A stretch of 64,000 nucleotides of DNA from an uncultured Rhizobium sp. (GTDB lineage: Bacteria > Pseudomonadota > Alphaproteobacteria > Rickettsiales > UBA1997): the NCBI GenBank assembly GCA_964506725.1, contig CAZDLU010000001.1:45955-109954 (forward strand), given 5' to 3'. The translations under genes and the position numbers were made by a program. The notes under the pieces are model-generated. The model ran no database searches and had not been told where the DNA came from. It saw only the letters and a program-made list of their open reading frames with translations. Positions 5,634-50,221 of this stretch are shown here, in pieces (the first letter of the stretch is position 1; every line of letters starts with the position of its first letter).

Positions 5634-8555
5634 CTAGTTGCTGTCATCACTGTCTTTCTTAGAGCCTCTGTTGCTTCCTGCGGATCTGATTTCTGATTTT
5701 ATTCTGTTTGCTGTTTTGGAAGCACTGTTCTTGATTCCTTTTGCCGCTTTAAGACTGCCTTTACCTAAGCGCTTCTGTGCTGCAGAAAGGAAACCGGCAG
5801 CTTTGAAAAACATTTGTGTTGCAGATTTGCCGGATGCAGGAAGTTCAGTACCGCCAATAAGAGCTGAAGTAATGCCTGAAATTTCATCCATAAATTTATA
5901 AAGCAGATACATTATCAAAAATGCTTTGGTTAATGTTAATACGCCGGCGCGTGAAAAAATATCCGGTAAATTTTTTAAGGTTGGAATGTTGATGCCAAAA
6001 GCAGCCAAAACCGGAATCCTGCCGAAATCATTAAAACCAAGAATGCAAACCGCACTATCGCGCATCGGATTGATTATTTTGTCACCGGGATGGTCACAGG
6101 CCGGAAGAACATTCGGATCGCTTTCATTTATTACTCTATTGCCGTTGCTATCAACGCAAGATTTGTTGCAAGCCAGTGTCTTATACGGTCCGTTACCGAT
6201 GAAAGTAGCGCTGCCAATTACCGTTTTGTCAAAAGTTGTAATTAAAATTGCAATATAGGCAAAAAGTATCATGGGTTGAAGGCAGAAGCTGATTAGCTCG
6301 GTGAGCCATTTTTTAAAAATATGTTCGGTTTTTTTGAACAAGAGACAAGTGATTGTCAGCGGCGAAACAAAAATAAAAATTATTATTGATATTGCCGAAA
6401 GAAGGAAAATGTGGAGCGCACGAATCGTTAAGGAAATCAGGCAAATTCCAATAAACATCATGGCAAGTGCTAAATAAATTCCGATTGGGCCGGTAAAGAA
6501 GGAAGCTAAAACTAATGAAGCAATATTGGCAGCGGAATCTTGTGGGCCAAAACCCAAATAGCGCATGATTTTGCAATCAAGCGTATCCCAAATTGCTAAA
6601 TATTCTTTGCCGTCAGGATAGGTGCGGCCTGTTGAAGTTGTAGTGCCATCAGACAATGTAATTTCGCCGAATTGGCATCCGTCGCGTTTTGATTCATCTG
6701 TTCCGGCATCAATTTTAAAGACCAGGCGCGCGAATTCGTAAGAGCCGGAATAAAAACCGTCGAAGAACTGAGTTTGCCAGGCATCACCTAAAGCGAAATA
6801 AAAAATCACGCCGATTTTTAATATGTAAGGTGTTAACTCTTTAGTAGAAAGTTGTCCGAAACCAAGTAAAGTCTTGATTCCGTAAAACATTATCGACAAG
6901 GTTAAGACAAGTTTAATGGCATCTTTCATTACAGATTGTAATGTTTCAAAGAATGAGCGATCTAATACTTTATTGCCTTTTTTAAATATAAAATCGCCTT
7001 TGGTGATATATTCATTGCTTTGGCAAATGCCGTTAGCATCGGGATATTCATTGACGTTTAAGCATTCGCTGTGACCGGCGCGATTATAAAATAAATTTTC
7101 TAAAGTTTCTTTAACGCATTGAGCGATTGGCGCGCTGAAGTGACGCTGAGCACCGAGAACTATGCCACCGAAACTAGCTTTATTTTGTGAATCGCCGACA
7201 AAGTTACGACAAGCCGCAGAAGCGTAAGGCGAACCTATATTGGAATTGTAATTAAAAGAAGAATTAGTGCGGGTGCAGTGAGTTAAATATTGGCAATAGT
7301 TACGACATTTTCCGGCCTTGTCGTTGTAAGAACAATCCGTATTCCTGATCTCGCTTTTGCTGGCACAATTTCCGGCTTCTAAATCTTCTTGTGTTATGTA
7401 AGTCCATCTTTTATTGCTGCTTGACCAAATGCCGTCCTGATAGTAATCGCAATATTCCGTGCCGCCGCTAATTGAGAAATTGTAAGGGCAAAGACTATAG
7501 CTTTCAGCGCAAATGAAGCGATCATTATCAATAAATTTGGTGGAAAAAGTAACGGAATCGATGGTGCAAAGGCTTCCCGCCTTGCAGAATTTTTTGCCGC
7601 GACTTCCGCGATCGATGCAGATATATTGCGAGCTGCGGGCCTTACAGCAATTATAAGCTTTGGTGTAATGTGCTTGCCTGTCGCCTTCCCAATTTCTGCC
7701 GGTTACCGGATCGCTGGTTCCTTTAATTAAGTAAGAATCGCAATTATAATTACCAAGCGCCGGACCGCGCAAATAATATAGTTGTGCCGGATAATCTTCA
7801 TATTTGGCGGTTGCGACCGAACTTGCGTCAGTACGATTCGGGTCGCGACAAGTCTCTCCACTTTCGGGATTATCAATTGTTTCAACGCCTTGATAATACC
7901 ATTCCCGAAATGGTTTATAAACATCGCTGGCGTAAGATAATACTAATTTATCCGTTTCGCTATTGGTTATGAATCCGTCGATTGTTTGTTGTACCGTTGC
8001 TTTATAATCAGGAACATCAATTGAATAAAGAGTGGGGCTGGGCTTAGTCCAATTAGCACCGCAAATCTGGGTATTATTGTAAGCGTAATTGGCAATACCG
8101 TATATTGTTCCAAGCTCGGCCATCGCTGTTCCAAAAGAGGCAAGGGCGACTCCATAAGCAACGGCACAATCGGCATCTCGCGTGTTTGCTGTTGCCTTCA
8201 TAATATCAATAGCATCGCTAACAATTGAAGGCGTTACCCTTATATTACTTGCTATTCCGCAAGCAGCGTTCATTACCGGAATTGATATTTTTACTGCCGC
8301 ATAGCTGGTAGCAATTACCGTAATGCAAACCGGGTTTGTCAAAACAAATAGAGCGTCATGGCCGCCGGCATTTGGTCCTACGGTCGGGTTGAAATCAAGC
8401 CCGGAAGGTTTGCCATCGGTAGGACTGCAAGTACGGATTCGTCCCGGACCGTAATCAAAGTCAGCGGCAAAGGAATTATTATTTAAAATTAAGGCAGCAA
8501 CAAAAAACAGAAGCGAGAAAAAACCAAAAACTTTTTTTCGCAATTTTTGCATCAT
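5634..8555 (-). CDS. virB6: VirB6/TrbL-family type IV secretion inner-membrane protein (973 aa, enlarged)
   Basis: ATGA overlap with the upstream virB4 stop. Signal peptide, a ~490-aa Cys-rich N-terminal domain, and a central polytopic block (aa ~545-800, ..LFKKTEHIFKKWLTELISFCLQPMILFAYIAIL..) resembling the TrbL/VirB6 core. Charged C-terminal tail. Confidence 0.75.
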   Translation of the reverse strand: MMQKLRKKVFGFFSLLFFVAALILNNNSFAADFDYGPGRIRTCSPTDGKPSGLDFNPTVGPNAGGHDALFVLTNPVCITVIATSYAAVKISIPVMNAACGIASNIRVTPSIVSDAIDIMKATANTRDADCAVAYGVALASFGTAMAELGTIYGIANYAYNNTQICGANWTKPSPTLYSIDVPDYKATVQQTIDGFITNSETDKLVLSYASDVYKPFREWYYQGVETIDNPESGETCRDPNRTDASSVATAKYEDYPAQLYYLRGPALGNYNCDSYLIKGTSDPVTGRNWEGDRQAHYTKAYNCCKARSSQYICIDRGSRGKKFCKAGSLCTIDSVTFSTKFIDNDRFICAESYSLCPYNFSISGGTEYCDYYQDGIWSSSNKRWTYITQEDLEAGNCASKSEIRNTDCSYNDKAGKCRNYCQYLTHCTRTNSSFNYNSNIGSPYASAACRNFVGDSQNKASFGGIVLGAQRHFSAPIAQCVKETLENLFYNRAGHSECLNVNEYPDANGICQSNEYITKGDFIFKKGNKVLDRSFFETLQSVMKDAIKLVLTLSIMFYGIKTLLGFGQLSTKELTPYILKIGVIFYFALGDAWQTQFFDGFYSGSYEFARLVFKIDAGTDESKRDGCQFGEITLSDGTTTSTGRTYPDGKEYLAIWDTLDCKIMRYLGFGPQDSAANIASLVLASFFTGPIGIYLALAMMFIGICLISLTIRALHIFLLSAISIIIFIFVSPLTITCLLFKKTEHIFKKWLTELISFCLQPMILFAYIAILITTFDKTVIGSATFIGNGPYKTLACNKSCVDSNGNRVINESDPNVLPACDHPGDKIINPMRDSAVCILGFNDFGRIPVLAAFGINIPTLKNLPDIFSRAGVLTLTKAFLIMYLLYKFMDEISGITSALIGGTELPASGKSATQMFFKAAGFLSAAQKRLGKGSLKAAKGIKNSASKTANRIKSEIRSAGSNRGSKKDSDDSN

Positions 8556-10942
8556 TTAGAACCGGAGCGTTTATAATAAATCGGCAACCAATCATCAGGA
8601 TCATCGCCGACTTCGTCAATTATTTGATCCATCAAAATTACAGTGTCGGCGCGCGCTGAAAGTACGCGAATTACTTCATCCATGCCGCCTAAATCGATAC
8701 GCGCAATTACGCCGTCATTATCTTGTTTAACCAAGAAAAATCTGGTGGAAGGATCTGTTGTTTTTACCAGATTAAATTCGCGCTCTGAAAGCATAAATAC
8801 TTCGCGGTAAAGATTGGTTGCTTTCAAATTCGGTAAGAAAATTTGGGTGGCAGTTTGCTGTACTAAAGTGTCGGAAATGCTACTCTTGGCAGCATCTTCA
8901 ACCGATTGTGTGGCGAACACCACGAAAGTATTTAATTTTCTTAAAACTTTCAGCCAATCTTTAATTTTTGGCGCAAACACCGCATTTCCAATTAATGCCC
9001 AAGCTTCGTCAAGCACGATCATTGTCGGCGAGCCATCAAGTGAAGTTTGGATTCTATGAAATAAATAAAGTAGAACCGGCGCAATGGCTGATTTGTCTTG
9101 CAAAATGTGGCCCATTTCGATGCCGAAAGTGCGCGCTGAAGTAAAATCAATTAAATCTTCTTCATTATCAAAAAGTTTGGAATGCGAACCTCCGGAATGC
9201 CACATGGCAAGTCTTCCGGCCAATGTGCCGGGGCCGCCCAGCCCCATGAAAGGCGCAATATTGCGCAATCTTCTTTGTTCTTTCGGTAATTTATAATTAC
9301 CGTTTACCGCTTCATTAATGCGGTCAATTTCATGCGCCGGTAAAGGCGCTTCGCCGTTTGAAACCAGCACCTTCAAGAATTCAATTAAGAAAGAGCGATT
9401 AACATTATTATCTTCAAGTTGAAAAGGATTAAAACCGGAAACCTTAGCCGCATCAGGAATCATATAGCGTCCGCGAATGGCGCGAATAAAAATTTCTGCG
9501 CCGCGATCCTTATCGAAGAAAAATAAACGGCATTTAAATTTTTGGGCCTGAGCGCTTAAAAAATTGAGTAACACCGTTTTACCTGCGCCCGTCGGACCAA
9601 TAATCATGCTATGTCCGACATCGCGCACGTGAAAACTGAAAAAATACGGTGTTCCGGAAACCGTATTTAACACTGTAACGGCATCGCCCCAATGGTTTTT
9701 CTTCCTTTTGCCCGAAGGATAATTATGAAAAGAAGCAAAGGCGGCAATATTCAAAGTATTAATAACAGAGCGGCGCGCCATGTAATCGGCATTGCCCGGA
9801 AGCTGGGCCCAATAGGCCGGCTCCATGTTCATTTTTTCGCGAACTCCGGTAATACCGGCGTTGGAAAGCTCAACTACAGCTTGTGATAGCGCGCTTTCTA
9901 AAGCTTTCGGCGTATCCTCAACACAAAGCACACTCATATGATGATTGCCGAAAGCAAATTCACCACTCATCGCCGAATCAAGAGCTTGATCAATTTCCTG
10001 AATTTGTGAAACGGCTACGTCTTCGGATTGTACTAATCTTCGTTGTTGCAATTGCATCGAGCTAATCGCCACCATTCGATTAATGAAAGAAAAAGATTGG
10101 CTGATTATAAGTTCGAAAGGTAATTGCATGAAGCCGTCGAAAACTCCGGCATGCGTGGATGGCCGATATTCCTTGATCGAAACCAATCCGCCATATTTAA
10201 CGCCGCTCGGATTATGGACTTCGACTGATTTATTGCCGAAGTAAAGGCGACTCATCGGCAAATGATGCGAGATCTCGCCAAGCGGTACCATCATTGGTTG
10301 TGAGTAACCGCAATTGACTAAGCGTCCCAAAAATTCCAGCAATTCCGAAGTAACGCTGCCATCAGCATTTTCACTAAGTCCTAAAATTTCCGGCCCGTAA
10401 TTACCAAAACCGTTCAAAATGCGTTCGGTCATTTCGTCCAGCTCGTCGAAAGCTTCGCGCATGTAATTTTCCCAAGCCAATTTGTCAGTCTTATGCTGTA
10501 ATTTTTTGGCCATGTGTTCAAGCACGGCGACACCCGAAGTGTCAGCGCCGCGAATAATGGTAAAATAATGTTCGTTGATGAAAGTTTTATCATCGGAATG
10601 TTTTACTGCCCATTCATCATTAACTCTTTTAGAAAAAGCATCAGGCATTTCGCCATCCGGAAAGCCTTTTTCTTTGCGGCGGATAGTATGAAAATAAAGT
10701 GAAAAATTGCCGGAAGCCATACCTTTCAGCAAGTTATTGCGCGCCGCTTTTTTTAGATCAATATCAACATCATCGGCAGTTTCAAAAGCGAATCCTTTAA
10801 TTTTAATAACGCGAATAAGCTCTTCTTTGTATGTTAAGATTGTATCGGAATTATAGTGGCACTTATAAGGAATAAAATGCGCTGCCGACACTTCGCCCTT
10901 CGTGATTTTTTCTTTTGTCGGTTTGACGGTTGTAAGACGCAT
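8552..10942 (-). CDS. virB4: VirB4/CagE-family type IV secretion ATPase (canonical copy)
   Basis: 796 aa. N-terminal ..FIPYKCHYNSDTILTYKEELIRVIKIKGF.., Walker A GPTGAGKT (encoded at 9575-9598), Walker B TMIVLDEAW, and ..VFATQS.. motif C region. Confidence 0.9.
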   Translation of the reverse strand: MRLTTVKPTKEKITKGEVSAAHFIPYKCHYNSDTILTYKEELIRVIKIKGFAFETADDVDIDLKKAARNNLLKGMASGNFSLYFHTIRRKEKGFPDGEMPDAFSKRVNDEWAVKHSDDKTFINEHYFTIIRGADTSGVAVLEHMAKKLQHKTDKLAWENYMREAFDELDEMTERILNGFGNYGPEILGLSENADGSVTSELLEFLGRLVNCGYSQPMMVPLGEISHHLPMSRLYFGNKSVEVHNPSGVKYGGLVSIKEYRPSTHAGVFDGFMQLPFELIISQSFSFINRMVAISSMQLQQRRLVQSEDVAVSQIQEIDQALDSAMSGEFAFGNHHMSVLCVEDTPKALESALSQAVVELSNAGITGVREKMNMEPAYWAQLPGNADYMARRSVINTLNIAAFASFHNYPSGKRKKNHWGDAVTVLNTVSGTPYFFSFHVRDVGHSMIIGPTGAGKTVLLNFLSAQAQKFKCRLFFFDKDRGAEIFIRAIRGRYMIPDAAKVSGFNPFQLEDNNVNRSFLIEFLKVLVSNGEAPLPAHEIDRINEAVNGNYKLPKEQRRLRNIAPFMGLGGPGTLAGRLAMWHSGGSHSKLFDNEEDLIDFTSARTFGIEMGHILQDKSAIAPVLLYLFHRIQTSLDGSPTMIVLDEAWALIGNAVFAPKIKDWLKVLRKLNTFVVFATQSVEDAAKSSISDTLVQQTATQIFLPNLKATNLYREVFMLSEREFNLVKTTDPSTRFFLVKQDNDGVIARIDLGGMDEVIRVLSARADTVILMDQIIDEVGDDPDDWLPIYYKRSGSK

Positions 10943-12812: not shown

Positions 12813-12853
12813 AATAAAAAAACTTGCCGTCATGTTGAGTAAAATACTCGCAA

Positions 12854-12926
12854 GTCATGCTGAGCCTGTCGAAGCATGTGTTTATTCTCGAAGTCTCAAC
12901 ACATGCTTCGACAGGCTCAGCATGAC
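12854..12926. repeat. palindromic element, family A (copy A1)
   Basis: gtcatgctgagcctgtcgaagcatgtg .. cacatgcttcgacaggctcagcatgac. Its right end supplies the ATG used as the tolB start. Confidence 0.9.
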
Positions 12927-14289
12927 TATGAGGATTTTGTTTTTTATTTTATCATTTCTCCTTACAAATACCGCTCTTGCCAATGTTTCTCTTGTCATCA
13001 AAAACGAAAATATTGCGCGCACCAAATTATTATTTTCCGGTTTTGAAAATGTTGATCCGCTAGTGCAAAGCGATGCGCTTGATGTATTAAATCGCATCCA
13101 AAATGATTTGCGCGCCACTGATCTTTTTGAATTTGTAAAACAAAATGGAAGCCTTGAAACGGCAGGCATAAGCCGCAATATGAATTTAAATTTAAAAAAG
13201 AATTTAAATGCTGAAAACGCTTCAGTTGAAACATTGCCTGATTTTGAAAAATACAAAAAAGATGATATTGGGGCGATAGTTGTCGGCCAATTTAATTTTG
13301 ATCAAAGCGGTAATTTGGAAGTGCGCCTGCGTATGTGGGACGTGCTTGATCAAAAACAATTATTTGGTAAATATTATGTTTCTTCAAAAGATAATTATCA
13401 AAAATTAGCTAATTCAATTGCTAACGAAATTTATAAATCAATTACCGGCGAAAAATACGGGTTTTTCAATTCACAAATTCTTTATATTTCTGAAACCGGT
13501 TCGATTCATAAGCGCATTAAAAAAATTAATCTGATCAATATTGACGGTAGCGGATATCGTTCTTTAACTGACGGGCGCGAGTTGGTTTTAACGCCGATTT
13601 TTTCTAAAAGAGCCAATGAAATTTTTTATTTACGCTATTTTAAAAATCATCCGCAAATTTTTAGTTTAAATACGCAAAACCTGCGCAGCCAGAAAATAGG
13701 TGGCTTCCGCGGCACAACTTTTGCTGCCAACACCGTTCCGGAAAATAATAATTCAATTTTGCTTTCGGCGATTGTTGACGGCAATAGTGATATTTATGAA
13801 ATGGATGTTGAAAATAATGTGGCGCGGCGTTTGACAAAAAGTCCGGCGATTGATACTACTCCTTGTTACTCTCCTGATAAAAAATTGATTGCATTTTCTT
13901 CCGATCGCGATGGTTTGGGGCAGCAAATTTATTTGATGAATTTGAATGAGGCTTATGTTAAGCGCATAAGTTCTGGTTCCGGATCTTACTCTAAACCGGT
14001 TTGGTCGCCGGACGGTAAATTAATTGCTTTTACCAAAATGAAAGGTGGTAATTTTTTCATCGGTACTATGACGCCTGACGGTAAAAATGAAAAATTATTG
14101 GTTAAAGCCTATATAGTTGAAGGAGCCAAGTGGTACAAGGACAGCCGCCACTTAATTTATTCAAAAAAGCGCAGCGCCTATGGCCAAGATTCAATTCCAC
14201 GTTTGTTTGTGATTGATATTGTGACAGGAGTTGAGTTTGAAGTGCCGACGCCGGTGGGAGAGGGGGCTACCGACCCAGATTGGGTTTAA
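12922..14289 (+). CDS. tolB: Tol-Pal system periplasmic beta-propeller protein TolB
   Basis: The likely true start is ATG 12922 (MTMRILFFILSFLLTNTALA signal peptide). The upstream 55 codons of the tracked ORF run through a palindromic element. Repeated ..P.WSPDGK.IAF.. beta-propeller blades. Confidence 0.85.
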   Translation: MTMRILFFILSFLLTNTALANVSLVIKNENIARTKLLFSGFENVDPLVQSDALDVLNRIQNDLRATDLFEFVKQNGSLETAGISRNMNLNLKKNLNAENASVETLPDFEKYKKDDIGAIVVGQFNFDQSGNLEVRLRMWDVLDQKQLFGKYYVSSKDNYQKLANSIANEIYKSITGEKYGFFNSQILYISETGSIHKRIKKINLINIDGSGYRSLTDGRELVLTPIFSKRANEIFYLRYFKNHPQIFSLNTQNLRSQKIGGFRGTTFAANTVPENNNSILLSAIVDGNSDIYEMDVENNVARRLTKSPAIDTTPCYSPDKKLIAFSSDRDGLGQQIYLMNLNEAYVKRISSGSGSYSKPVWSPDGKLIAFTKMKGGNFFIGTMTPDGKNEKLLVKAYIVEGAKWYKDSRHLIYSKKRSAYGQDSIPRLFVIDIVTGVEFEVPTPVGEGATDPDWV

Positions 14290-22352: not shown

Positions 22353-22445
22353 GTCATGCTGAGCCTGTCGAAGCATGTTTTAGAACTGGGAGTATAATAA
22401 TCATGCTTCGCCCTTCGACAGGCTTAGGGTGACGCTCAGCATGAC
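22353..22445. repeat. palindromic element, family A (copy A2)
   Basis: gtcatgctgagcctgtcgaagcatg .. tcatgcttcgcccttcgacaggcttagggtgacgctcagcatgac. Lies between purA and the GT4 gene. Confidence 0.9.
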
Positions 22446-23641: not shown

Positions 23642-23654
23642 GCGCTTCTCGATA

Positions 23655-23760
23655 TCATGCTAAGCATCACCCTGAGCCTGTCGAAGGGCGAAGCATGATT
23701 ACTCCGAATTCAACATCATGCTTCGCCCTTCGACAGGCTCAGGGTGACGCTCAGCATGAC
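23655..23760. repeat. palindromic element, family A (copy A3, long form)
   Basis: tcatgctaagcatcaccctgagcctgtcgaagggcgaagcatgat .. tcatgcttcgcccttcgacaggctcagggtgacgctcagcatgac. Lies between the GT4 gene and kdsB. Confidence 0.9.
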
Positions 23761-23773
23761 ATCAAATTTTTTT

Positions 23774-24532: not shown

Positions 24533-25028
24533 CAAAACAAAATCCACTATCGGCTGGAAAGAATGGTTTAGTCTTGATTGCTTGGGCCTTCCGGCGATTA
24601 AGGGCAAAATTGACACCGGAGCCAAAACTTCCGCTTTGCATGCTTTTAATATTGAAAGTTTTTTTATCGAAGATGTTGAATATGTAAAATTCGACATTCA
24701 TCCTTTGCAAAAAAATAAAAAGCTGGTGCGCTCTTGTGTGGCGCAGGTTATTGAGCGCAGAATGGTTTCGGATTCGGGTGGTAAAAAAGAAAAAAGATTT
24801 GTCATAAAATCTTATTTAATGATCGGCGAGAAAAAAATCATGATCGAACTAACTCTTGCCAATCGTGATTCCATGACCTTTCGTATGTTGCTTGGTCGTG
24901 ATGCGGTGAAGGCCGCAAAAATGTTAGTCGATCCTTCAAAATCTTTTTTACAAGGACGACCTAAATCAAGTAAAGTTTTAAAATTATATAAAAATATTAA
25001 ACCAATAATTGACCCTCGATATTTATGA
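24504..25028 (+). CDS. RimK-associated retropepsin-like protease (COG4067 'ATP-dependent zinc protease' family)
   Basis: 174 aa. ..IGWKEWFSLDCLGLPAIKGKIDTGAKTSALHA.. carries the DTG(A) aspartic-protease signature typical of the protein encoded upstream of rimK. 4-nt overlap with rimK. Confidence 0.65.
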   Translation: MLMKKPLQINKTKSTIGWKEWFSLDCLGLPAIKGKIDTGAKTSALHAFNIESFFIEDVEYVKFDIHPLQKNKKLVRSCVAQVIERRMVSDSGGKKEKRFVIKSYLMIGEKKIMIELTLANRDSMTFRMLLGRDAVKAAKMLVDPSKSFLQGRPKSSKVLKLYKNIKPIIDPRYL

Positions 25029-25897
25029 AATTAATCCTTTTAGCATCAAATCCTGATTTATATTCTAACAAAAGATTGGTCGAGGTCGCTAGAGCGCGTG
25101 GACACCAAATCGAGTTTGTTAACGTTGGCGATTGTTATATTAAAGTTGCCTGCAACAATGGCGAAGTTTTTTATGATGAGGGCAAAAAAATGGAGCGCGT
25201 CGATCACGTAATCACGCGTATCAAGCCCGCAATGACATTTTACGGCACGGCGATTATTCGCCAATTTGAAGTGATGGGAATTAATTGCTTCAATAAATCT
25301 GAAGCAATTACCAAGTCTCGCGATAAATTACATACTTTGCAAATTTTGTCGCAATATGGTCTGGATGTGCCGGTTACAAGCTTCGCCAATACTTCTTACG
25401 AAACCAAAGATTTAATAAATATCGTTGGTGGCGCGCCGTTAGTGGTGAAATTACTGGAAGGAACAAAAGGTGTCGGCGTGGTTTTAGCAGAAACCGGCAA
25501 AGCCGCCGAAAGCGTAATTAACGCGTTCCGCAGCTTAAAAGCCGATATTTTAGTGCAGCAATATATTAAAGAATCAAAAGGCCAAGACATTCGTTGTTTC
25601 GTTATCGGTGATAAGGTTGTGGCCTCAATGCAACGCATCGCGCAAGACGGCGAATTCCGCGCCAATATTCATTTGGGCGCGATTGCCAAGGCTATTGAAA
25701 TAACAGAACAAGAACGCGAAATGGCGATTAATGCGGCCAAAATTATCGGGCTTGAAGTGGCCGGTGTTGACATGGTGCGCTCGAATAACGGCCCAAAAAT
25801 TCTAGAAATAAATTCAGCGCCAGGCCTTGAGGGTATTGAGGGTGCTACCGGTGTTGATATTGCGGCGAAGATGATTGAGTTTTTGGAGAGGAAGTAA
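25025..25897 (+). CDS. rimK: RimK-family alpha-L-glutamate ligase (ATP-grasp)
   Basis: 290 aa. ATP-grasp pattern ..KLHTLQIL...G..VP.T...., ..PLVVKLLEGTKGVGV.., ..ILEINSAPGLEGIE.. Confidence 0.9.
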   Translation: MKLILLASNPDLYSNKRLVEVARARGHQIEFVNVGDCYIKVACNNGEVFYDEGKKMERVDHVITRIKPAMTFYGTAIIRQFEVMGINCFNKSEAITKSRDKLHTLQILSQYGLDVPVTSFANTSYETKDLINIVGGAPLVVKLLEGTKGVGVVLAETGKAAESVINAFRSLKADILVQQYIKESKGQDIRCFVIGDKVVASMQRIAQDGEFRANIHLGAIAKAIEITEQEREMAINAAKIIGLEVAGVDMVRSNNGPKILEINSAPGLEGIEGATGVDIAAKMIEFLERK

Positions 25898-25898
25898 A

Positions 25899-26087
25899 AT
25901 GAGGTTATACACTGCGAAGATTGAGCAAGAATTAAACAGCAAAACAATTTTTGTAATAAAAAAATCAATAAAAAATCATGCTAAATTAAAATCATTTGAT
26001 GATGTTGATAGTGCGATGAAATATTTATTGTTTGAGAAAAAAACCATTAAACCCAAAACCTATGAAGGAGATAGTAAAGAATTTTGA
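25899..26087 (+). CDS. small hypothetical protein, possible antitoxin of the adjacent disrupted PemK/MazF-like gene
   Basis: 62-aa ORF from ATG 25899 (MRLYTAKIEQ..). It overlaps the start of the toxin-like ORF (26062) by 26 nt, a typical TA arrangement. No family recognised. Confidence 0.3.
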   Translation: MRLYTAKIEQELNSKTIFVIKKSIKNHAKLKSFDDVDSAMKYLLFEKKTIKPKTYEGDSKEF

Positions 26088-26640
26088 TCAATGGAATGAT
26101 CTAAAAAAGAGGCTGGATTTAACAAATTGTAAAACTATTACTTTTCAAGAGCGGGAAGTATGGTGGTGCAGTATTGGACTTAGGCACTGTTAGCTAATTA
26201 ATTTCATTTCATATTTCGCCCTATTTTGACTTATTTTTTGGCAAAATTTTTCAAAATATATCCTGATATTTATCAAAATTTTGCCAAAGAAACGTTCAAA
26301 ATATGCCAAAATCTGTAATAAAATTAATTAGCTAACAGTGCCTAATATTGGAAGCGAAGAAAATGGTAAAAATTCTCTGTTCAGTCGCCCTGTTTTAATT
26401 TTAAGAAAATTTAATGATAGGATGTTTCTAGGAATTCCGCTAACTAGTAAAATTAAGGATAATAAACATTATTTTCCGATAGTTTTTAAGGATAAAATTA
26501 GTTGCTTGATGCTATCGCAAATGAGAGTATTCGAGAGTAAGAGATTAACGACCTTGATGGGAAAAGTTCCTTCGAATCAGTTTGAAGAAATTAGATTGGT
26601 AGCGAGTAAAGTTGTGCTCGGAATTTATCCGGCCCCATAG
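26062..26640 (+). pseudogene. PemK/MazF-family toxin gene interrupted by a MITE
   Basis: 26062-26181 encodes MKEIVKNFDQWNDLKKRLDLTNCKTITFQEREVWWCSIGL. 26344-26640 continues NIGSEENGKNSLFSRPVLILRKFNDRMFLGIPLTSK... Joined, they read as one ~139-aa PemK/MazF-like protein. A 160-bp insertion separates them. Confidence 0.8.
26183..26342. mobile_element. 160-bp non-autonomous MITE with 22-bp perfect TIRs and TA target-site duplication
   Basis: TIR GGCACTGTTAGCTAATTAATTT at 26183 and its exact reverse complement ending at 26342. TA at 26181-26182 and 26343-26344. AT-rich, non-coding interior with an internal inverted repeat (ttggcaaaatttt / aaaattttgccaa). Confidence 0.85.
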
Positions 26641-26717
26641 TGGTTATTCAAGGGCCGTATGTGCCAAAGGCAATATGGTTATTAATTTATAATCTATTAA
26701 AATAGTAAAATAGTCAA

Positions 26718-27329
26718 ATGAAAAAACCTTTTGAGGCCAAAAAAGTATTTAGTAACGAAGCTGAGTTTTTACTGGGCGCGCATCAATTTTCGCAAGTGCC
26801 GAGCTATCATTATCCGGAAGTGGCTTTTTTAGGGGCGTCAAATGCCGGGAAATCTAGTTTGGTTAATGCGGTTTTGAAGCAAAAAGTGGCGATTGTTTCA
26901 TCTACTCCGGGCAGAACGCGTCAATTGAATTTTTTTAAAGTTGGCGAAGTCTTTGTCGCTGTTGATTTGCCGGGCTATGGTTTTGCCAAGGCCAGTAAAA
27001 ATCATGCTGAGCATTGGCAAAAAACTGCCGTGGAATATTTGACGAAAAGAGCTAATTTAAAGCGGGTGTTTTTGTTAGTTGATGTGGTTAAAGGCTTGAA
27101 AGACGCGGATCTGGACATGATTAATATTTTTAATGCTTTGGCAATTTCTTTCCAAATTGTTTTGACAAAAATTGACAAAGTCAATAAAGACGAGCAATTG
27201 CAAGCTGTTGCAAAAATAAAAACTGCCTCTAAAAAATGGCCGGCGGTTTTTGATAAAATCATGCTGACAAGTTCGGAAAAAGGTTATGGAATTGATGATT
27301 TGCAAGATGAAATTTTGAGTGCTTTATGA
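26718..27329 (+). CDS. engB: ribosome-biogenesis GTPase EngB/YsxC
   Basis: 203 aa. G1 GASNAGKSSL, G3 DLPGYG, G4 TKIDK. Confidence 0.9.
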   Translation: MKKPFEAKKVFSNEAEFLLGAHQFSQVPSYHYPEVAFLGASNAGKSSLVNAVLKQKVAIVSSTPGRTRQLNFFKVGEVFVAVDLPGYGFAKASKNHAEHWQKTAVEYLTKRANLKRVFLLVDVVKGLKDADLDMINIFNALAISFQIVLTKIDKVNKDEQLQAVAKIKTASKKWPAVFDKIMLTSSEKGYGIDDLQDEILSAL

Positions 27330-27429
27330 AAATTATTTTGATTGTTTTGATTACTACTATTGTGGTGATAGCTGGGATGGTTTGGCTTAATTCGGCAAGT
27401 TACAATGGCAAAAAAGAGGGTAAGCCTAA

Positions 27430-27512
27430 CTCGATGTCATCCTGAGCATGTCGAAGGATGATTCATGCCCGAATCTAGAATCATTCTTCGACATGCTCAG
27501 GATGACATCGAG
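27430..27512. repeat. palindromic element, family A variant (copy A5)
   Basis: ctcgatgtcatcctgagcatgtcgaaggatgattc .. gaatcattcttcgacatgctcaggatgacatcgag. Lies between engB and hslU. Confidence 0.9.
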
Positions 27513-27624
27513 TCGGTGGTTCAAGATTACATTGAGTGGCTTAAGATGATATTGATTTTAGCACTGGAAATTTTCAAGTAGCGTTATTACATTAAAACAA
27601 CTTGCAAAATTTTTACTAAATTAA

Positions 27625-32330: not shown

Positions 32331-33314
32331 TTAGGCACCTTTTTTTAGCTTTTTCTTCAAATTTTTTCGCCATAATTTCAGCCTTTGCTTTAATGGTGGC
32401 GCAACTTGTGCTAAAGTTTTAGAATTAGGATCAAAAGCTTGTTTTGGTTTTTTATAATTCTTTTTGAAATGTTTTAAAGCCGCATCAAAAATATAAATCG
32501 GAATCCAGCTTAAATTCAAAGTATGACACCAAATCGGCTTGTTTGTGGATTCCTCAATGGCAAAAAACCTACCATCCGGATTCATATGAATAATTTGCAT
32601 ATCTTCACCAAGCGGTAATTTTGTCATTTTCATGCCGTCGGAAACGCAAATTACTTCACCAAAAAGTGAATCTTGAGCGTCCGGTTTATTTACCGGAAGT
32701 GCTTTAAATTTTACTTCTTTTTCATAAATTTCATAGGCCGTCATTTCATTGAAAGACCAAGGCCCCGTTTGGTTTGCAAGTTCAGATTTTATTTTTGTAA
32801 TATAATCTTTTCTTAAAAATAATTCGTTAATTTTTTTAACGTAACCGTCAATTACTTCCGGATTTCTAAAGAAGGCTTTGAAGCAGTTGCCGTGGCACTG
32901 CACGGTGCAATCGTAATCCTGATATTTATATTCCAAAGTTGATAAATCGGTGAAAACCATATTATCAGAATCAAAATGCCAAAATTCCTTGATGCCTTCT
33001 TTTTTTACAAAATTATAAAGAATAAACCATTTACGAAAAACGAATTTATTCCAATCTTCGCCATGCTTGAAAGCATCAAATTCCTTGGTTGCAATCAGTT
33101 CATAAACTTCGTCGAACCTTTTTAAATCATCGCCGAAATCATAATCTTTAAGCAAAAAATGTTTAAGACCATGTTTTTCCGCAACCGCTTTGTTTGAAGT
33201 ATCTCCCAGTAAAATTATGTCGCTGTCTGGATTAGAAAGTCGAGTTGATTGAAAAACGTAAGGCAGATATTTTGAATTGCCGTAGTGGCAGTAGATTATT
33301 GGATTATGTTTCAT
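32331..33314 (-). CDS. hypothetical protein, possible DXD-motif nucleotide-sugar transferase; strongly basic C-terminus
   Basis: 327-aa ORF. ..FRKWFILYNFVKKEGIKEFWHFDSDNMVF.. resembles the DXD region of GT-A-type transferases. C-terminal KQRLKLWRKNLKKKLKKGA. The function call is weak. Confidence 0.45.
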   Translation of the reverse strand: MKHNPIIYCHYGNSKYLPYVFQSTRLSNPDSDIILLGDTSNKAVAEKHGLKHFLLKDYDFGDDLKRFDEVYELIATKEFDAFKHGEDWNKFVFRKWFILYNFVKKEGIKEFWHFDSDNMVFTDLSTLEYKYQDYDCTVQCHGNCFKAFFRNPEVIDGYVKKINELFLRKDYITKIKSELANQTGPWSFNEMTAYEIYEKEVKFKALPVNKPDAQDSLFGEVICVSDGMKMTKLPLGEDMQIIHMNPDGRFFAIEESTNKPIWCHTLNLSWIPIYIFDAALKHFKKNYKKPKQAFDPNSKTLAQVAPPLKQRLKLWRKNLKKKLKKGA

Positions 33315-33803: not shown

Positions 33804-33878
33804 TGGTTGGGACGGCAGGATTCGAACCTGCGGGTGGCGGTACCAAAAACCGCTGCCTTACCACTTGGCTACGTCCCA
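33804..33878 (-). tRNA. tRNA-Gln (anticodon UUG), CCA encoded
   Basis: Reverse complement: TGGGACG TA GCC AAGTGGTAA GGC A GCGGT TTTTGGT ACCGC CACCC GCAGG TTCGAAT CCTGC CGTCCCA A CCA. This folds as a cloverleaf with a 7-nt anticodon loop, U33 and anticodon TTG. Confidence 0.9.
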
Positions 33879-39794: not shown

Positions 39795-40235
39795 TTATTT
39801 CGCCAACTCCTTGGCCCGCGCCTCAAACGCATCCATCATTTTCTCTGTCGCTTTCTCAAAAATCACGCCAATCAGTTTTGTCAGCAAAATCGAGTTAAAT
39901 TCAAAATCGATAAAAAAACTAACCTCACAACCATTTTGCAAATCCTTGATGCGCCATTGATTTACAAGCTTTTTGAAAGGGCCTTTAATTGCAACTACAT
40001 CGATAAAATATTCATCATTATTTTTGCCATGCGTAACATTGGAAGTATATTTTTCAAAAAAACTTTTAAAATTTATTAACAAATCAGCTTCTAAATTTTC
40101 ATCGGAAATTATTTTGGTAATTTTTGCTTGCTTGCACCAAGGCAGAAATTGTGGGTATTGCTCGATGTCCATTACCAAATCGTGGAGAAGTTTGGCGGGA
40201 TAGGGGAGTGTTTTTGTTTGTTTTAGTGAAGGCAT
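39795..40235 (-). CDS. ratA: SRPBCC/START-fold protein, RatA / COQ10-like
   Basis: 146 aa. ..LPYPAKLLHDLVMDIEQYPQFLPWC.. matches the polyketide-cyclase/RatA family pattern. Confidence 0.75.
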   Translation of the reverse strand: MPSLKQTKTLPYPAKLLHDLVMDIEQYPQFLPWCKQAKITKIISDENLEADLLINFKSFFEKYTSNVTHGKNNDEYFIDVVAIKGPFKKLVNQWRIKDLQNGCEVSFFIDFEFNSILLTKLIGVIFEKATEKMMDAFEARAKELAK

Positions 40236-40240
40236 GTTTT

Positions 40241-40352
40241 AAGTGCTTAAGTGCTTAGGTGCTTTCGCGCTGACGCGCTAGTGCTTAAGTAGTTCTCGTT
40301 TTTCTTAAGCACCTAAGCACTAGCGCGTCAGCGCGAAAGCACTTAAGCACCT
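40241..40352. repeat. palindromic element, family B (copy B2)
   Basis: aagtgcttaagtgcttaggtgctttcgcgctgacgcgctagtgcttaag .. cttaagcacctaagcactagcgcgtcagcgcgaaagcacttaagcacct. Long imperfect hairpin between the ratA start and the ffh stop. Confidence 0.85.
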
Positions 40353-40361
40353 AATAACTAC

Positions 40362-41702
40362 CTAACCAATATTCTTCATCATCTCCTGCATTTTCTGCGG
40401 ATCAATTTTTCCAAATTTCCCCATCATTTTTTGCATTTGCTTATATTTTTTAAGCAAACGATTAACCTCTTGAATCGTTGAGCCGGCGCCTTTCGCGATG
40501 CGATGTTTTCTTGAGGAATTTAAAATATCGGGGTTTCTTCTTTCTTTTTTCGTCATTGATAAAATCAACGCTTCCTGCAATTTAATATCTTTTTCAAAAT
40601 TATTCATCTGTCCCAATTGTTCTTTTATTTTTCCCATTCCGGGCAAGAAATTCAATATTCCGCTAAGGCCGCCCATTTTTTTCATATTGCGAATTTGACT
40701 AAGCAAATCGTCAAAATCAAATTGGCCTTTTTGCATTTTTTTGGTCGCTTTTTCCATTTCGTCAGCATCAAACATTTCTTGAGCTTTTTCAACTAACGAA
40801 ACCACGTCGCCCATGCCGACAATTCTTGACGCGATGCGATCGGGATTAAACTCTTCCAAATCTTCCAATTTTTCACCAACACCGATAAATTTTATCGGGC
40901 AATTTGTGGCAGCTTTCATCGTCAAAGCCGCACCACCTCTGGCGTCGCCGTCCAAACGCGTTAAAATAATTCCGCTAATTTGTAATTTTTCGTTAAAATT
41001 TTTGGCAACATTTACAGCGTCTTGACCAATCATGGCATCAACAACGAGTAAGATTTCTTGCGGGTTAGTAATTTTTTTAACCGCCACAATTTCTTCCATC
41101 ATCATCTCGTCAATATGAGTTCTTCCGGCAGTATCTAAAATCAAAACATCATATCCCAAATCAACAGCCATTTGCATTGAACGCTTAGCAATTTCTAATG
41201 GTTTTTGCTCATCAATGATTGGCACAAAATCAACACCAACTTTTTGCGCTAAAATTTCTAACTGCTTTTGCGCCGCTGGTCTGTAAGTATCAAGCGATGA
41301 AAGCAAAACGCGTTTATTATTTTTATTTTTTAAACGCAGCGCCAATTTTCCCGAAGTGGTAGTTTTCCCCGAAGCCTGTAAACCGGCCATCAAAATCACA
41401 ACTGGCGGCTTATGGCTAAAATTAATTTCTGCTCTTTCGCTACCAAGTAATTTTACTAATTCATCATGGACGATTTTTACAATCATCTGACCCGGCGAAA
41501 CGCTCTTGGTAACCTGCTGCCCCAAGGCTTCAGCCTTAACTTTTTCAATAAAATCTTTTGCAATTGTAAGAGAAACATCGGCCTCTAAAAGCGCGATTCT
41601 GATTTCGCGCATGGTGGCATTTAAATCGTCTTCCGAAATAAATTTTTTGCCGGAAATCTTGTCGAAAACTTTTGTGATTTTATTGGAGAAATTGTCGAAC
41701 AT
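40362..41702 (-). CDS. ffh: signal recognition particle protein Ffh
   Basis: 446 aa. GLQASGKTTT, DTAGR and TRLDGDARGGAAL GTPase motifs, plus a Met-rich M domain. Confidence 0.95.
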   Translation of the reverse strand: MFDNFSNKITKVFDKISGKKFISEDDLNATMREIRIALLEADVSLTIAKDFIEKVKAEALGQQVTKSVSPGQMIVKIVHDELVKLLGSERAEINFSHKPPVVILMAGLQASGKTTTSGKLALRLKNKNNKRVLLSSLDTYRPAAQKQLEILAQKVGVDFVPIIDEQKPLEIAKRSMQMAVDLGYDVLILDTAGRTHIDEMMMEEIVAVKKITNPQEILLVVDAMIGQDAVNVAKNFNEKLQISGIILTRLDGDARGGAALTMKAATNCPIKFIGVGEKLEDLEEFNPDRIASRIVGMGDVVSLVEKAQEMFDADEMEKATKKMQKGQFDFDDLLSQIRNMKKMGGLSGILNFLPGMGKIKEQLGQMNNFEKDIKLQEALILSMTKKERRNPDILNSSRKHRIAKGAGSTIQEVNRLLKKYKQMQKMMGKFGKIDPQKMQEMMKNIG

Positions 41703-41799: not shown

Positions 41800-41882
41800 C
41801 TCGATGTCATGCTGAGCCTGTCGAAGCCTGTATTTGTACTCCGAGTTTTAACACCTGCTTAGACAGGCTCCGTGACATCGAG
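41800..41882. repeat. palindromic element, family A (copy A4)
   Basis: ctcgatgtcatgctgagcctgtcgaagcctg .. cacctgcttagacaggctccgtgacatcgag. Immediately upstream of deaD. Confidence 0.85.
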
Positions 41883-50096: not shown

Positions 50097-50112
50097 AATT
50101 AAAAAATTTCTA

Positions 50113-50195
50113 CTTCCGTCATTCTCGAGCGTAAGTAAAGCAATCCAGTTTGTTGCGTCTTGGATTGCTTCGCTTACGCTCGAGAGTGACGGAAG
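50113..50195. repeat. palindromic element, family C
   Basis: cttccgtcattctcgagcgtaagtaaagcaatcca .. tggattgcttcgcttacgctcgagagtgacggaag. The ~35-nt arms have 3 mismatches. Lies between mntA and mnmA. Confidence 0.85.
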
Positions 50196-50221
50196 TGGAT
50201 GAAAATATAGAATTAAAATAA

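What the first reader, a model, noticed from the sequence alone, without database searches (positions are those of the whole stretch)
26062..26640. A 160-bp TA-flanked MITE sits inside a PemK/MazF-like toxin gene, and in-silico excision restores the ORF
Seen in the sequence:
- 26062-26181 encodes ..FQEREVWWCSIGL, and 26344-26640 continues NIGSEENGKNSLFSRPVLILRKFN..GIPLTSK...
- Together these read as one ~139-aa PemK/MazF-family toxin.
- Between them lies a 160-bp AT-rich non-coding element (26183-26342).
- The element has perfect 22-bp terminal inverted repeats (GGCACTGTTAGCTAATTAATTT).
- It is flanked by a duplicated TA (26181-82 and 26343-44).
- Deleting the element plus one TA gives ctt aat att gga (..SIGL-NIGS..), which is in frame.

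Short TIRs plus a TA duplication are the signature of IS630/Tc1-mariner-mobilised (Stowaway-like) MITEs.

Inference: undecayed TIRs and an otherwise intact split ORF argue for a recent insertion, and therefore a transposase still active in trans in a reduced genome. The overlapping upstream 62-aa ORF (25899-26087) may be the now-orphaned antitoxin.
Basis: partly seen in the sequence, partly recalled or inferred. Interest (0 to 1): 0.65.

Follow-up and report, generated by a model that had tools for sequence, protein, structure and literature searches.

The report
Mobile mini-transposon splits a toxin gene
A 160-bp non-coding "jumping" DNA element of a previously undescribed family has landed in, and knocked out, a MazF/PemK-type toxin gene of an uncultured Rickettsiales-like bacterium; this is a well-documented but ordinary kind of event.

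Summary
Window 26183-26342 is a 160-bp, 27% GC element with perfect 22-bp terminal inverted repeats, flanked by TA on both sides. [quoted passage not shown]

Removing it plus one TA rebuilds a 138-aa ORF. This ORF passes the Pfam PemK_toxin threshold and is collinear with uninterrupted homologues. The join falls inside the clade's most conserved motif (WWCSIGL|NIGxEENGK).

The element belongs to a real mobile family:
- At least 24 further loci in related freshwater and groundwater metagenome contigs carry it.
- All 11 complete copies are TA-flanked.
- A degenerate copy in a sister genome sits at a TA that is empty in this window.

It is a new bacterial MITE family of the known TA-duplicating kind (RUP, Correia and ERIC-like).

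- **Parent transposase.** No transposase was found, and an IS5-group parent is not excluded.
- **Transposase still active.** This is untested.
- **The 62-aa upstream ORF as antitoxin.** It is an ORFan, and relatives of this toxin usually stand alone.

The insertion does look recent. One extra finding is that compensatory changes maintain the palindrome along the whole length of the element.

The parts
26183..26342 (.). 160-bp non-autonomous transposable element (MITE). It is a near-perfect foldback palindrome with stops in all six frames.
   Evidence: It scores 153.8 bits against the family profile and is the only copy in the window. It is 86-90% identical to copies in metagenome loci L010-L032.
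26183..26204 (+). Left terminal inverted repeat, GGCACTGTTAGCTAATTAATTT. It contains TAG, TAA and TAA, one stop in each of the three frames.
   Evidence: 0 mismatches, none expected by chance. The frames were read.
26321..26342 (-). Right terminal inverted repeat, the exact reverse complement of the left one.
26181..26182 (.). Left copy of the duplicated TA target.
   Evidence: All 11 complete family copies have TA on both sides.
26343..26344 (.). Right copy of the duplicated TA target.
26062..26182 (+). 5' fragment of the PemK/MazF-like gene (codons 1-40 plus the first base of codon 41). As it now stands, translation runs into the repeat and stops after ...SIGL-RHC* at 26191-26193.
26345..26640 (+). 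3' fragment of the PemK/MazF-like gene (rest of codon 41 to the stop at 26638-26640). Gene callers call it as a 100-aa ORF starting from a GTG inside the right repeat (26338).
   Evidence: P0001 is 100% identical and carries PF02452.
25899..26087 (+). 62-aa ORF that overlaps the toxin start by 26 nt. It is an ORFan, so a role as antitoxin is possible but unsupported.
   Evidence: only a self hit among 5.8 billion proteins. (no family). (AF2 single-sequence model: two helices and a disordered tail, mean pLDDT 71, not diagnostic).
25024..25025 (.). Unoccupied TA at the stop/start overlap of the Zn-protease-like gene and rimK (ttTAtga). In the sister genome (L002) this same site carries a degenerate 134-bp copy of the same MITE family.

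Best explanation
**What it is.** Window 26183-26342 is one copy of a non-autonomous DNA transposon (MITE). Its family lives in a clade of uncultured Rickettsiales-like Alphaproteobacteria.

**Shown:**
- The element inserted at the TA of codons 40/41 (CTT AAT) of a 138-aa PemK/MazF-fold gene lying between rimK and engB, and it duplicated that TA.
- The insertion point is inside the clade's most conserved motif.
- Each 22-bp terminal repeat carries a stop in all three frames. The gene is therefore cut into a 43-codon stub (…SIGLRHC*) and a promoter-less, start-less 3' piece. The toxin is almost certainly inactive.
- The insertion is young. The repeats and the TA duplication are perfect, and the split ORF has kept every conserved residue.

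**Inferred:**
- The element moves by cut-and-paste, using a DDE transposase supplied in trans that binds the terminal repeats and attacks TA with a 2-bp stagger. An IS630/Tc1-mariner-type enzyme is the most likely candidate. It was not found, so neither its identity nor its current activity is established.
- The two arms of the element are kept complementary along their whole length, by selection or by concerted evolution. This suggests that a foldback (hairpin) form matters for its propagation, or arises from the way new master copies are made.
For: **Anatomy.**
- Perfect 22-bp TIRs, none expected by chance.
- TA on both sides.
- Stops in all six frames.

**The interrupted gene is real and restored exactly.**
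- PF02452 at 38.3 bits against a cut-off of 23.1, with the match spanning the junction.
- 194 homologues, the best at 66% identity, with full-length coverage.
- No indel at the join in the motif WWCSIGL|NIGHEENGK.
- A profile of the clade hits solved MazF, EndoA and PemK structures at E = 7e-5 to 4e-3.
- All 35 conserved positions are retained.

**The family is mobile.**
- A conserved core pattern found 25 metagenome loci.
- There are 14 complete copies at 11 independent sites: 159-160 bp, plus two 115-bp deletion variants. Every one is flanked TA...TA.
- Most ends of partial copies are also preceded by TA; three are preceded by TG.
- Copies in the lake metagenomes are 93-99% identical to each other and 86-90% identical to the window copy.
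- Many copies sit at contig ends.

**Reciprocal filled and empty sites.** Sister genome L002 (78-84% nt identity to the window) has a degenerate copy at the Zn-protease/rimK junction. The window has a single TA there.

**The host lineage is shared.**
- L021 is syntenic with window 10.3-16.9 kb.
- GltA is 90-91% identical to MAGs labelled Rickettsiales and Alphaproteobacteria.

**TA duplication** is the mark of IS630/Tc1-mariner transposition (PMC2170065). RUP, a 107-bp TA-targeting MITE, is proposed to be mobilised by IS630-Spn1 (PMC2229807).

**The palindrome is maintained.** Twelve of 65 arm-arm pairs show changes on both sides, against 3.5 ± 1.3 in shuffles (0 of 500 reach 12) and 0-2 in the slid controls.
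Against: - No autonomous element with these ends was found, and no transposase of any kind appears among the window ORFs of 150 aa or more.
- The two IS630/Tc1 motif patterns scanned (S-P-x-L-N-P-I-E-like and DN-x-x-x-H-like) are absent from about 270 kb of window plus fetched loci. This was a crude regex test.
- Neither the 22-mer nor the first core pattern occurs in the 185,579 species-representative genomes. The full genome could therefore not be inspected.
- Only one copy lies in these 64 kb.
- TA...TA flanks alone cannot prove a duplication. The alternative is a target TA plus an element-borne TA.
- Termini starting GG/GA and a YTAR-like target context (Y at -1 in 11-12 of 12 sites, R at +1 in 9-10 of 12, read) are also typical of IS5-group elements (my own knowledge).
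- Covariation between the arms can arise from shared ancestry of subfamilies or from arm-to-arm conversion, without any selection.
Confidence: 0.85

Rival explanations
1. The same MITE is mobilised by an IS5-superfamily (IS427/ISL2-group, PIF/Harbinger-like) transposase rather than by IS630/Tc1-mariner.
For: - Element termini begin GG/GA (GGCAC, GACAC, GAGAC).
- The target context is pyrimidine-TA-purine at most sites (read).
- In my recollection of the ISfinder groupings, both features are typical of IS5-family groups, some of which make 2-4-bp duplications centred on TA.
- No IS630 motif was found in the sampled DNA.
Against: - A strict 2-bp TA duplication at 11 of 11 complete sites is the textbook IS630/Tc1 signature (PMC2170065).
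- As I recall, IS630 itself prefers TA within CTAG, so the context does not discriminate.
- No IS5-type transposase was found either.
Confidence: 0.2
2. The element is a foldback hairpin repeat that moves as single-stranded DNA, by an IS200/IS605- or RAYT-type HUH enzyme or another hairpin-recognising system. On this reading the second TA belongs to the element and is not a duplication.
For: - The whole-length palindrome forms a very stable ssDNA hairpin.
- The arms covary along their full length, not only in the terminal 22-26 bp.
Against: - HUH-mobilised repeats are typically much shorter and asymmetric, and they insert next to a specific 4-5-nt target without symmetric flanks (my own knowledge).
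- Here both ends are equivalent, and copies occur in both orientations relative to their flanks.
- Internal-deletion variants keep both TIRs (L012 and L014), as expected for TIR-dependent mobility.
- No HUH transposase was seen in the window.
Confidence: 0.05
3. The interruption is not biological. It is an assembly chimera, or a minority allele, at a repeat in a metagenome-assembled contig.
For: - The window comes from a metagenome-derived contig.
- The only other assembly with this junction is the Logan assembly of run SRR11567520, which may not be independent of the window's contig.
- MITE copies frequently break assemblies (many copies at contig ends).
Against: - Both junctions are clean: an exact TA duplication and an exact restoration of a conserved motif. 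A chimera would not produce that.
- Flanking genes are collinear with the sister genome on both sides.
Confidence: 0.03
4. The insertion was not a neutral accident. It was retained because it silences a toxin that had lost, or never had, a cognate antitoxin. The MITE then acts as a built-in three-frame stop plus hairpin cassette.
For: - The upstream ORF has no relatives.
- Homologues are mostly solitary.
- The TIR carries stops in all three frames.
- This is the only complete copy found inside a gene; the other 10 complete sites are intergenic.
Against: - It is a single event with no population data.
- Intragenic hits by MITEs are ordinary. RUP and Correia elements insert into transposase genes (PMC2229807).
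- L004 shows another family copy truncating an HTH gene.
- Stop-rich ends are expected in 27% GC DNA.
Confidence: 0.1

Closest known systems
RUP (repeat unit of pneumococcus), the 107-bp MITE of Streptococcus pneumoniae proposed to be mobilised by IS630-Spn1
   Same: - Small and non-coding, with stops in all six frames.
- Has TIRs and inserts at TA.
- Copies are highly similar, which suggests recent activity.
- Sometimes lands inside genes, notably transposase genes.
(PMC2229807; compare.)
   Different: - No sequence relationship was seen.
- This element has much longer perfect TIRs (22-26 bp, against 9 bp listed for RUP).
- RUP's link to IS630 rests on TIR similarity to a known IS. No parent IS is known for this family.
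- The host phylum differs.
Correia/NEMIS elements of Neisseria (about 107 and 155 bp)
   Same: - Similar size: the long Correia form is about 155 bp, this element 160 bp.
- TIRs of about 24 bp and TA at the termini.
- The long form has stops in all frames and is almost always intergenic.
- A shorter internal-deletion form coexists with the long one, as with the 115-bp variants here.
- Transcripts fold as long stem-loops.
(PMC2229807.)
   Different: - The sequence is unrelated and the host is different.
- No IHF site or promoter function was tested here. The promoter-like matches in the region are no more frequent than chance.
- The transposase for Correia elements is also unknown.
IS630/Tc1-mariner transposons (for example ISY100, IS630) and eukaryotic Stowaway MITEs
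   Same: Exclusive TA target with a 2-bp TA duplication, and TIR-bounded cut-and-paste mobility (PMC2170065). All 11 complete copies here are TA-flanked.
   Different: - No transposase gene is present in the element.
- None was found in the sampled DNA.
- TIR similarity to any IS630-family member could not be tested.
Rickettsia palindromic elements (RPE)
   Same: They are palindromic repeats of about 105-146 bp in Rickettsiales that are found inside protein-coding genes (PMC2229807).
   Different: - RPEs insert in frame and are translated as part of the host protein.
- This element has stops in every frame and truncates the gene.
- The TSD status of RPEs is listed as unknown, whereas this family has a strict TA duplication.
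MazF/PemK/EndoA type II toxins (the interrupted gene)
   Same: - The Pfam PemK_toxin match is above threshold.
- A profile of the clade matches solved MazF, EndoA and PemK chains.
   Different: - This is a distant clade, with E about 1e-4 to solved structures and only 13 bits on the NCBIfam MazF equivalog.
- It has an N-terminal extension and its own WWCSIGLNIGHEENGK motif.
- It usually lacks a recognisable adjacent antitoxin.

Membership tests
Bacterial MITE (non-autonomous TIR transposon) | Small (<300 bp) with no coding capacity | tested here: met
   160 bp with stops in all six frames. Family copies are 115-160 bp.
Bacterial MITE (non-autonomous TIR transposon) | Terminal inverted repeats | tested here: met
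   Perfect 22-bp TIR in the window. The family consensus TIR is about 26 bp, GACACTGTTAGCTAATTATTTTTATT.
Bacterial MITE (non-autonomous TIR transposon) | Constant target-site duplication at independent sites | tested here: met
   TA...TA at all 14 complete copies, which represent 11 independent sites. Most partial ends are also preceded by TA.
Bacterial MITE (non-autonomous TIR transposon) | Many copies at unrelated loci, with paired filled and empty sites | tested here: met
   - 25 metagenome loci plus L002 and L004 carry copies.
- The empty rimK-junction site in the window corresponds to a filled site in L002.
- Uninterrupted toxin homologues serve as the empty state for the window insertion.
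Bacterial MITE (non-autonomous TIR transposon) | A related autonomous IS that shares the ends | tested here: inconclusive
   No long TIR pair and no repeated IS-sized segment were found in about 250 kb of loci.
IS630/Tc1-mariner-mobilised MITE | Insertion at TA with duplication of TA | tested here: met
   The reference behaviour is described in PMC2170065.
IS630/Tc1-mariner-mobilised MITE | TIRs matching those of an IS630-family element, and an IS630-type DDE transposase in the same genome | tested here: inconclusive
   - No transposase Pfam domain in any window ORF of 150 aa or more.
- Neither scanned motif pattern (S-P-x-L-N-P-I-E-like, DN-x-x-x-H-like) occurs in 270 kb.
- No plasmid match.
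- Only part of one contig of the genome was available.
PemK/MazF toxin family (PF02452) | Profile match above the curated threshold over the domain | tested here: met
   38.3 bits against 23.1, residues 31-124 on profile positions 3-102 of 109. Solved MazF, EndoA and PemK chains match at E = 7e-5 to 4e-3.
PemK/MazF toxin family (PF02452) | Adjacent cognate antitoxin gene (type II TA operon) | tested here: inconclusive
   - An overlapping 62-aa upstream ORF exists, but it has no homologue and no family match.
- Homologous loci lack a conserved partner.
PemK/MazF toxin family (PF02452) | Sequence-specific endoribonuclease activity and toxicity | not testable with these tools
   This needs expression of the reconstructed ORF.
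Rickettsia palindromic element (RPE) | In-frame insertion that is translated as part of the host protein | tested here: not met
   All six frames are closed. The host ORF stops 3 codons into the element.
Any curated structured RNA or intron (Rfam) | Covariance-model match | tested here: not met
   At gathering thresholds, only two tRNAs were found in the whole window.

The most novel reading that the evidence does not exclude
On this reading, the family's full-length palindrome is under selection rather than inherited passively. Twelve arm-arm pairs covary, including pairs far inside the terminal repeats. The element would then work as a portable hairpin plus three-frame-stop cassette. Its insertion into a toxin that stands alone without an antitoxin would have been kept because it disarms the toxin, making this a case of a MITE recruited as a genetic antidote.
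Probability: 0.08. Interest if true: 0.5.

Novelty: new member of a known kind. Interest (0 to 1): 0.3.

Why it matters
- It adds a well-delimited, apparently recently active MITE family to a poorly studied clade of uncultured Rickettsiales-like bacteria from freshwater and groundwater. Exact ends, target and subfamilies are now defined.
- That makes the family a usable marker for strain typing, for explaining assembly breaks, and for hunting the responsible transposase.
- It documents toxin-gene inactivation by a MITE.
- It shows that the rimK-engB gap is a swap site for toxin cassettes.
- None of this changes how MITEs or toxin-antitoxin systems are understood.

Tried and rejected
- **First core pattern elsewhere.** It gave 0 hits in JGI metagenomes and in viral contigs. 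It was too strict. A pattern redesigned from three copies then found 25 loci, and 0 in viral contigs.
- **Look-up of the window's RimK.** It is not on record, so the rest of the 128.6-kb contig could not be fetched.
- **Translated frame of the element against 1.84 billion proteins.** One hit, P0127. This led to L004, a truncated copy fused to a 73-aa HTH-like gene start. That fragment has no Pfam or NCBIfam match. I considered it as the parent transposase and rejected the idea, because the ORF starts just after a stop and reads outward.
- **Search for an autonomous partner.** I looked for TIR pairs 0.4-2.5 kb apart, all-against-all repeats among loci and IS630 motifs. Nothing was found.
- **BLAST of the consensus against plasmids.** Only chance-level hits.
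- **The 62-aa ORF.** The homology search returned only itself. The AF2 model is a helical hairpin of moderate confidence and was judged uninformative, so no fold search was run.
- **Promoter and terminator scan of 25800-26800.** No more sites than in shuffles, so no claim is made about outward promoters.
- **Literature.** No papers name the run or assembly accessions. The one search for papers combining MITEs with toxin-antitoxin/MazF terms listed none that mention MITEs among its top hits.
Full report
**1. What is in the sequence**

- TA lies at 26181-82.
- A 160-bp element occupies 26183-26342.
- TA lies again at 26343-44.

The element begins with GGCACTGTTAGCTAATTAATTT and ends with its exact reverse complement. 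These are the only two occurrences in the window even with 3 mismatches allowed, and no shuffle produced any. The element is 26.9% GC, in a window of 33-44% GC. [quoted passage not shown]

The whole element, not just its ends, is a foldback.
- Its 80-nt arms are 83% complementary.
- The predicted single-strand hairpin is -44.4 kcal/mol, 12 standard deviations below shuffles.
- The 22-bp repeat itself contains TAG, TAA and TAA in the three frames (read). Translation entering from either side therefore stops within a few codons.

**2. The interrupted gene**

Deleting the element and one TA gives a 138-codon ORF.
- It passes the Pfam PemK_toxin threshold: 38.3 bits against 23.1. The match runs from residue 31 to 124, across the join at residue 40/41.
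- A database search returned 194 homologues, nearly all 126-140 aa and uninterrupted. The best is 66% identical over 96% of the length.
- In an alignment with 13 of them the join lies inside the clade's most conserved block (WWCSIGL|NIGHEENGK). There is no gap or extra residue there.
- All 20 positions invariant among the 13 homologues are unchanged in the split gene. So are all 15 positions conserved in 12 of 13.
- A profile of the clade matches solved MazF, EndoA and PemK structures at E = 7e-5 to 4e-3.
- The NCBIfam MazF equivalog scores only 13 bits.

So this is a distant PemK/MazF-fold clade rather than a canonical MazF. As it now stands, the 5' piece ends ...SIGLRHC* three codons into the element. 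The 3' piece is called by gene finders as a 100-aa ORF starting from a GTG inside the right repeat (P0001).

**3. Is the 160 bp a mobile element?**

Yes. The first searches failed.
- The 22-mer and a first core pattern gave no hit in the species-representative genomes.
- The first core pattern also gave none in JGI metagenomes or viral contigs.

Three leads then opened the family.

(a) *A sister genome.* A contig of GCA_031972755.1 (L002) was reached through the neighbouring EngB protein. It is 78-84% identical to the window.
- It carries a degenerate 134-bp copy of the element immediately upstream of the rimK start codon.
- The window has the unoccupied site there, a single TA at 25024-25025 in the stop/start overlap ttTAtga.

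(b) *A translated frame.* Searching one translated frame of the element against 1.84 billion proteins gave one hit, P0127. Its last 42 residues are element-derived. Its 787-bp contig (L004) holds:
- a copy lacking the left 30 bp, fused to the start of a small HTH-like gene;
- a second, variant end abutting an IS3-family transposase remnant.

(c) *A redesigned pattern.* A pattern conserved in all three copies found 25 loci in JGI and NCBI metagenome contigs.

The family looks like this.
- Among the loci there are 14 complete copies at 11 independent sites. Three sites were sampled twice, in closely related contigs.
- Copies are 159-160 bp, apart from two 115-bp internal-deletion variants.
- Every complete copy is flanked TA...TA.
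- Most ends of partial copies are also preceded by TA. Three are preceded by TG.
- Many copies lie at contig ends, as expected for a repeat that breaks assemblies.
- The metagenome copies are 93-99% identical to one another and 86-90% identical to the window copy.
- One locus (L021) is syntenic with window 10.3-16.9 kb at 70-75% identity. The family therefore lives in relatives of the window's organism.
- A profile built from the family finds only the one copy in the 64-kb window.
- Except for the window copy and the truncated L004 copy, the insertions are intergenic.

Reading the flanks, the base before the TA is a pyrimidine at 11-12 of 12 sites. The base after it is a purine at 9-10 of 12. 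That suggests a YTAR-like preference.

**4. Host organism**

- Citrate synthase is 90-91% identical to proteins of MAGs labelled 'Alphaproteobacteria bacterium RIFCSPLOWO2_01_FULL_40_26' and 'Rickettsiales bacterium'.
- The window encodes two VirB4 paralogues and a 973-aa VirB6-like protein. To my knowledge this pattern is typical of the Rickettsiales rvh type IV secretion system.
- It also encodes purA, purB, thiC, trpF, a TonB-dependent receptor and rimK.

'Reduced genome' is therefore unproven.

**5. Mechanism**

*Shown:*
- a TIR-bounded, non-coding element;
- a strict TA on both sides at every complete site;
- reciprocal filled and empty sites;
- deletion variants that keep both ends.

*Inferred:*
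- Cut-and-paste movement by a DDE transposase supplied in trans. Exclusive TA targeting with TA duplication is how IS630/Tc1-mariner elements transpose (PMC2170065).
- The pneumococcal MITE RUP, also TA-targeting, is proposed to be mobilised by IS630-Spn1 (PMC2229807).

I could not find the enzyme.
- No window ORF of 150 aa or more has a transposase domain.
- Neither of the two IS630/Tc1 motif patterns scanned occurs in about 270 kb of window plus loci.
- No IS-sized repeat or distant TIR pair exists among the loci.

Because the termini start GG/GA and the target looks like YTAR, an IS5-group parent is a live alternative. This rests on my own knowledge and was not tested.

**6. An extra finding: the palindrome is maintained**

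On an alignment of 11 copies, 12 of the 65 arm-arm pairs show changes on both sides that keep complementarity. Examples are GGCAAAA/TTTTGCC in the window and L002 against GGTAAAA/TTTTACC elsewhere, and AGCTCAG/CTGAGCT in L010.
- Shuffles give 3.5 ± 1.3 such pairs, and none of 500 reaches 12.
- Slid controls give 0-2.

Several of these pairs lie well inside the terminal 26 bp. Three explanations remain open:
- selection for a hairpin;
- symmetric transposase-binding sites;
- arm-to-arm conversion when new master copies arise.

The data do not distinguish them. Long stem-loops are a general property of bacterial MITEs (PMC2229807).

**7. Age and consequences**

The following all argue that little neutral change has accumulated since insertion:
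- perfect repeats;
- an intact TA duplication;
- no stop or frameshift in 417 nt of split ORF;
- retention of all 35 conserved residues.

The cassette is also absent from the sister genome, which carries a YafQ-type toxin gene in the same rimK-engB gap. 'Recent' is therefore supported. 'A transposase still active' is only an inference.

**8. The proposed antitoxin**

The 62-aa ORF (25899-26087) overlaps the toxin start by 26 nt, and there is a purine-rich stretch before its ATG.
- Its only hit among 5.8 billion proteins is itself.
- It matches no Pfam or NCBIfam model.
- A single-sequence AF2 model gives two helices and a disordered tail at pLDDT 71.

In loci of five homologues the upstream neighbour differs:
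- an unrelated 57-aa ORF (P0009);
- a 102-aa ORF (P0003);
- a 168-aa gene (P0002);
- nothing at all (P0020 and P0022).

The antitoxin idea is possible but has no support.

**9. Comparison and verdict**

The element works like the TA-duplicating bacterial MITEs: RUP, Correia/NEMIS and ERIC. It meets every defining feature of a MITE that could be tested, except the identification of a parent IS. It differs from Rickettsia palindromic elements, which are translated in frame. I found no description of this family: papers naming the accessions do not exist in the library.

It is a new member of a known kind. It is cleanly documented and useful for annotating this clade, but not surprising.

Noticed in passing
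window 12853-12927, 22353-22433, 23651-23763, 27429-27513, 41812-41872 (a similar palindrome also at 50109-50199): A second, unrelated family of short (75-115 bp) intergenic palindromes is built on CTGAGCNTGTCGAAG and its complement. There are 10 half-sites in the window against 0.23 expected by chance. The family is also present in related metagenome loci (L012, L023, L024, L026, L028). It looks REP-like or terminator-like, and its function is unknown.
   Followed up: partly
window 40230-40363 and 58490-58587: A third palindromic repeat type is made of GTGCTTAAGTGCT / GTGCTCGGGTGCT-like units, with 41-60-nt arms that are 72-90% complementary. Both copies lie in intergenic positions.
   Followed up: no
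window 25897-26718, compared with L002:4307-4815 and L003:73-345: The rimK-engB gap holds different toxin cassettes in close relatives. The window has the PemK/MazF-like gene. Two relatives have a 90-aa YafQ-family toxin gene whose stop overlaps the engB start, with no ORF of 40 aa or more upstream of it. The gap looks like a swap hotspot for toxin genes.
   Followed up: partly
L002:3300-3433: The degenerate MITE copy sits exactly in the 4-bp stop/start overlap (ATGA) of the Zn-protease-like gene and rimK. The right-hand TA regenerates the rimK ATG. The upstream ORF now ends at the TAG inside the element's repeat. A run of N and unrelated AT-rich sequence just upstream (L002:3121-3260) suggests a scaffold gap or a further insertion.
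   Followed up: partly
L016:1-110 and L030:3530-3656: A different small GC-richer repeat (…CGCGACACGAGTCGCGCCCCA…GGGGAACCCCATATACC…) is inserted, in opposite orientations, at the central TA of two copies of the MITE. This appears to be a nested insertion by another family that also uses a TA site.
   Followed up: no
L015:~1800-1940, L022:~658-810 and L004:1-50: Subfamilies share the conserved interior but differ in positions 9-16 of the terminal repeat: GAGACTGT-CTACCATC and GAGCCTGT-CTAAAATC, against GACACTGT-TAGCTAAT. Conservation of the interior with divergent ends is the reverse of the usual MITE pattern.
   Followed up: partly
L011:5571-5592: A solitary terminal repeat (TA-GACACTGTTAGCTAATT) lies 20 bp upstream of a ribH-like gene. 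A complete MITE in the same orientation lies just downstream of that gene.
   Followed up: no
L004:38-283 (- strand) and 391-609 (+ strand): This 787-bp contig is a mosaic. It holds an IS3-family transposase remnant (rve, NF033516) cut off by a variant MITE end, and the first 73 codons of an HTH-like gene fused to a MITE copy that lacks its left repeat.
   Followed up: partly
window 5634-10942 and 52691-55180: There are two VirB4 paralogues (796 and 829 aa) and a 973-aa VirB6/TrbL-like protein. From my own knowledge, this pattern recalls the duplicated rvh type IV secretion system of Rickettsiales.
   Followed up: no
loci L035-L042 (homologues P0020 and P0022): This PemK-like clade has an N-terminal DFDxWNxLKKxLD extension and the motif WWCSIGLNIGHEENGK. 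It is widespread, and source names on several homologues point to Patescibacteria. It often stands alone, without a called upstream partner, next to unrelated genes: hipA, tRNA-synthetase-like genes and ankyrin-repeat genes.
   Followed up: partly
window 32331-33314 (-), 44960-46387 (+), 55182-57032 (-), 692-1489 (+): Several long ORFs (265-616 aa) have no Pfam hit; three of them (32331-33314, 44960-46387, 55182-57032) were also scanned against NCBIfam without a hit. The 327-aa ORF lies about 500 bp from tRNA-Gln (33804-33878).
   Followed up: no
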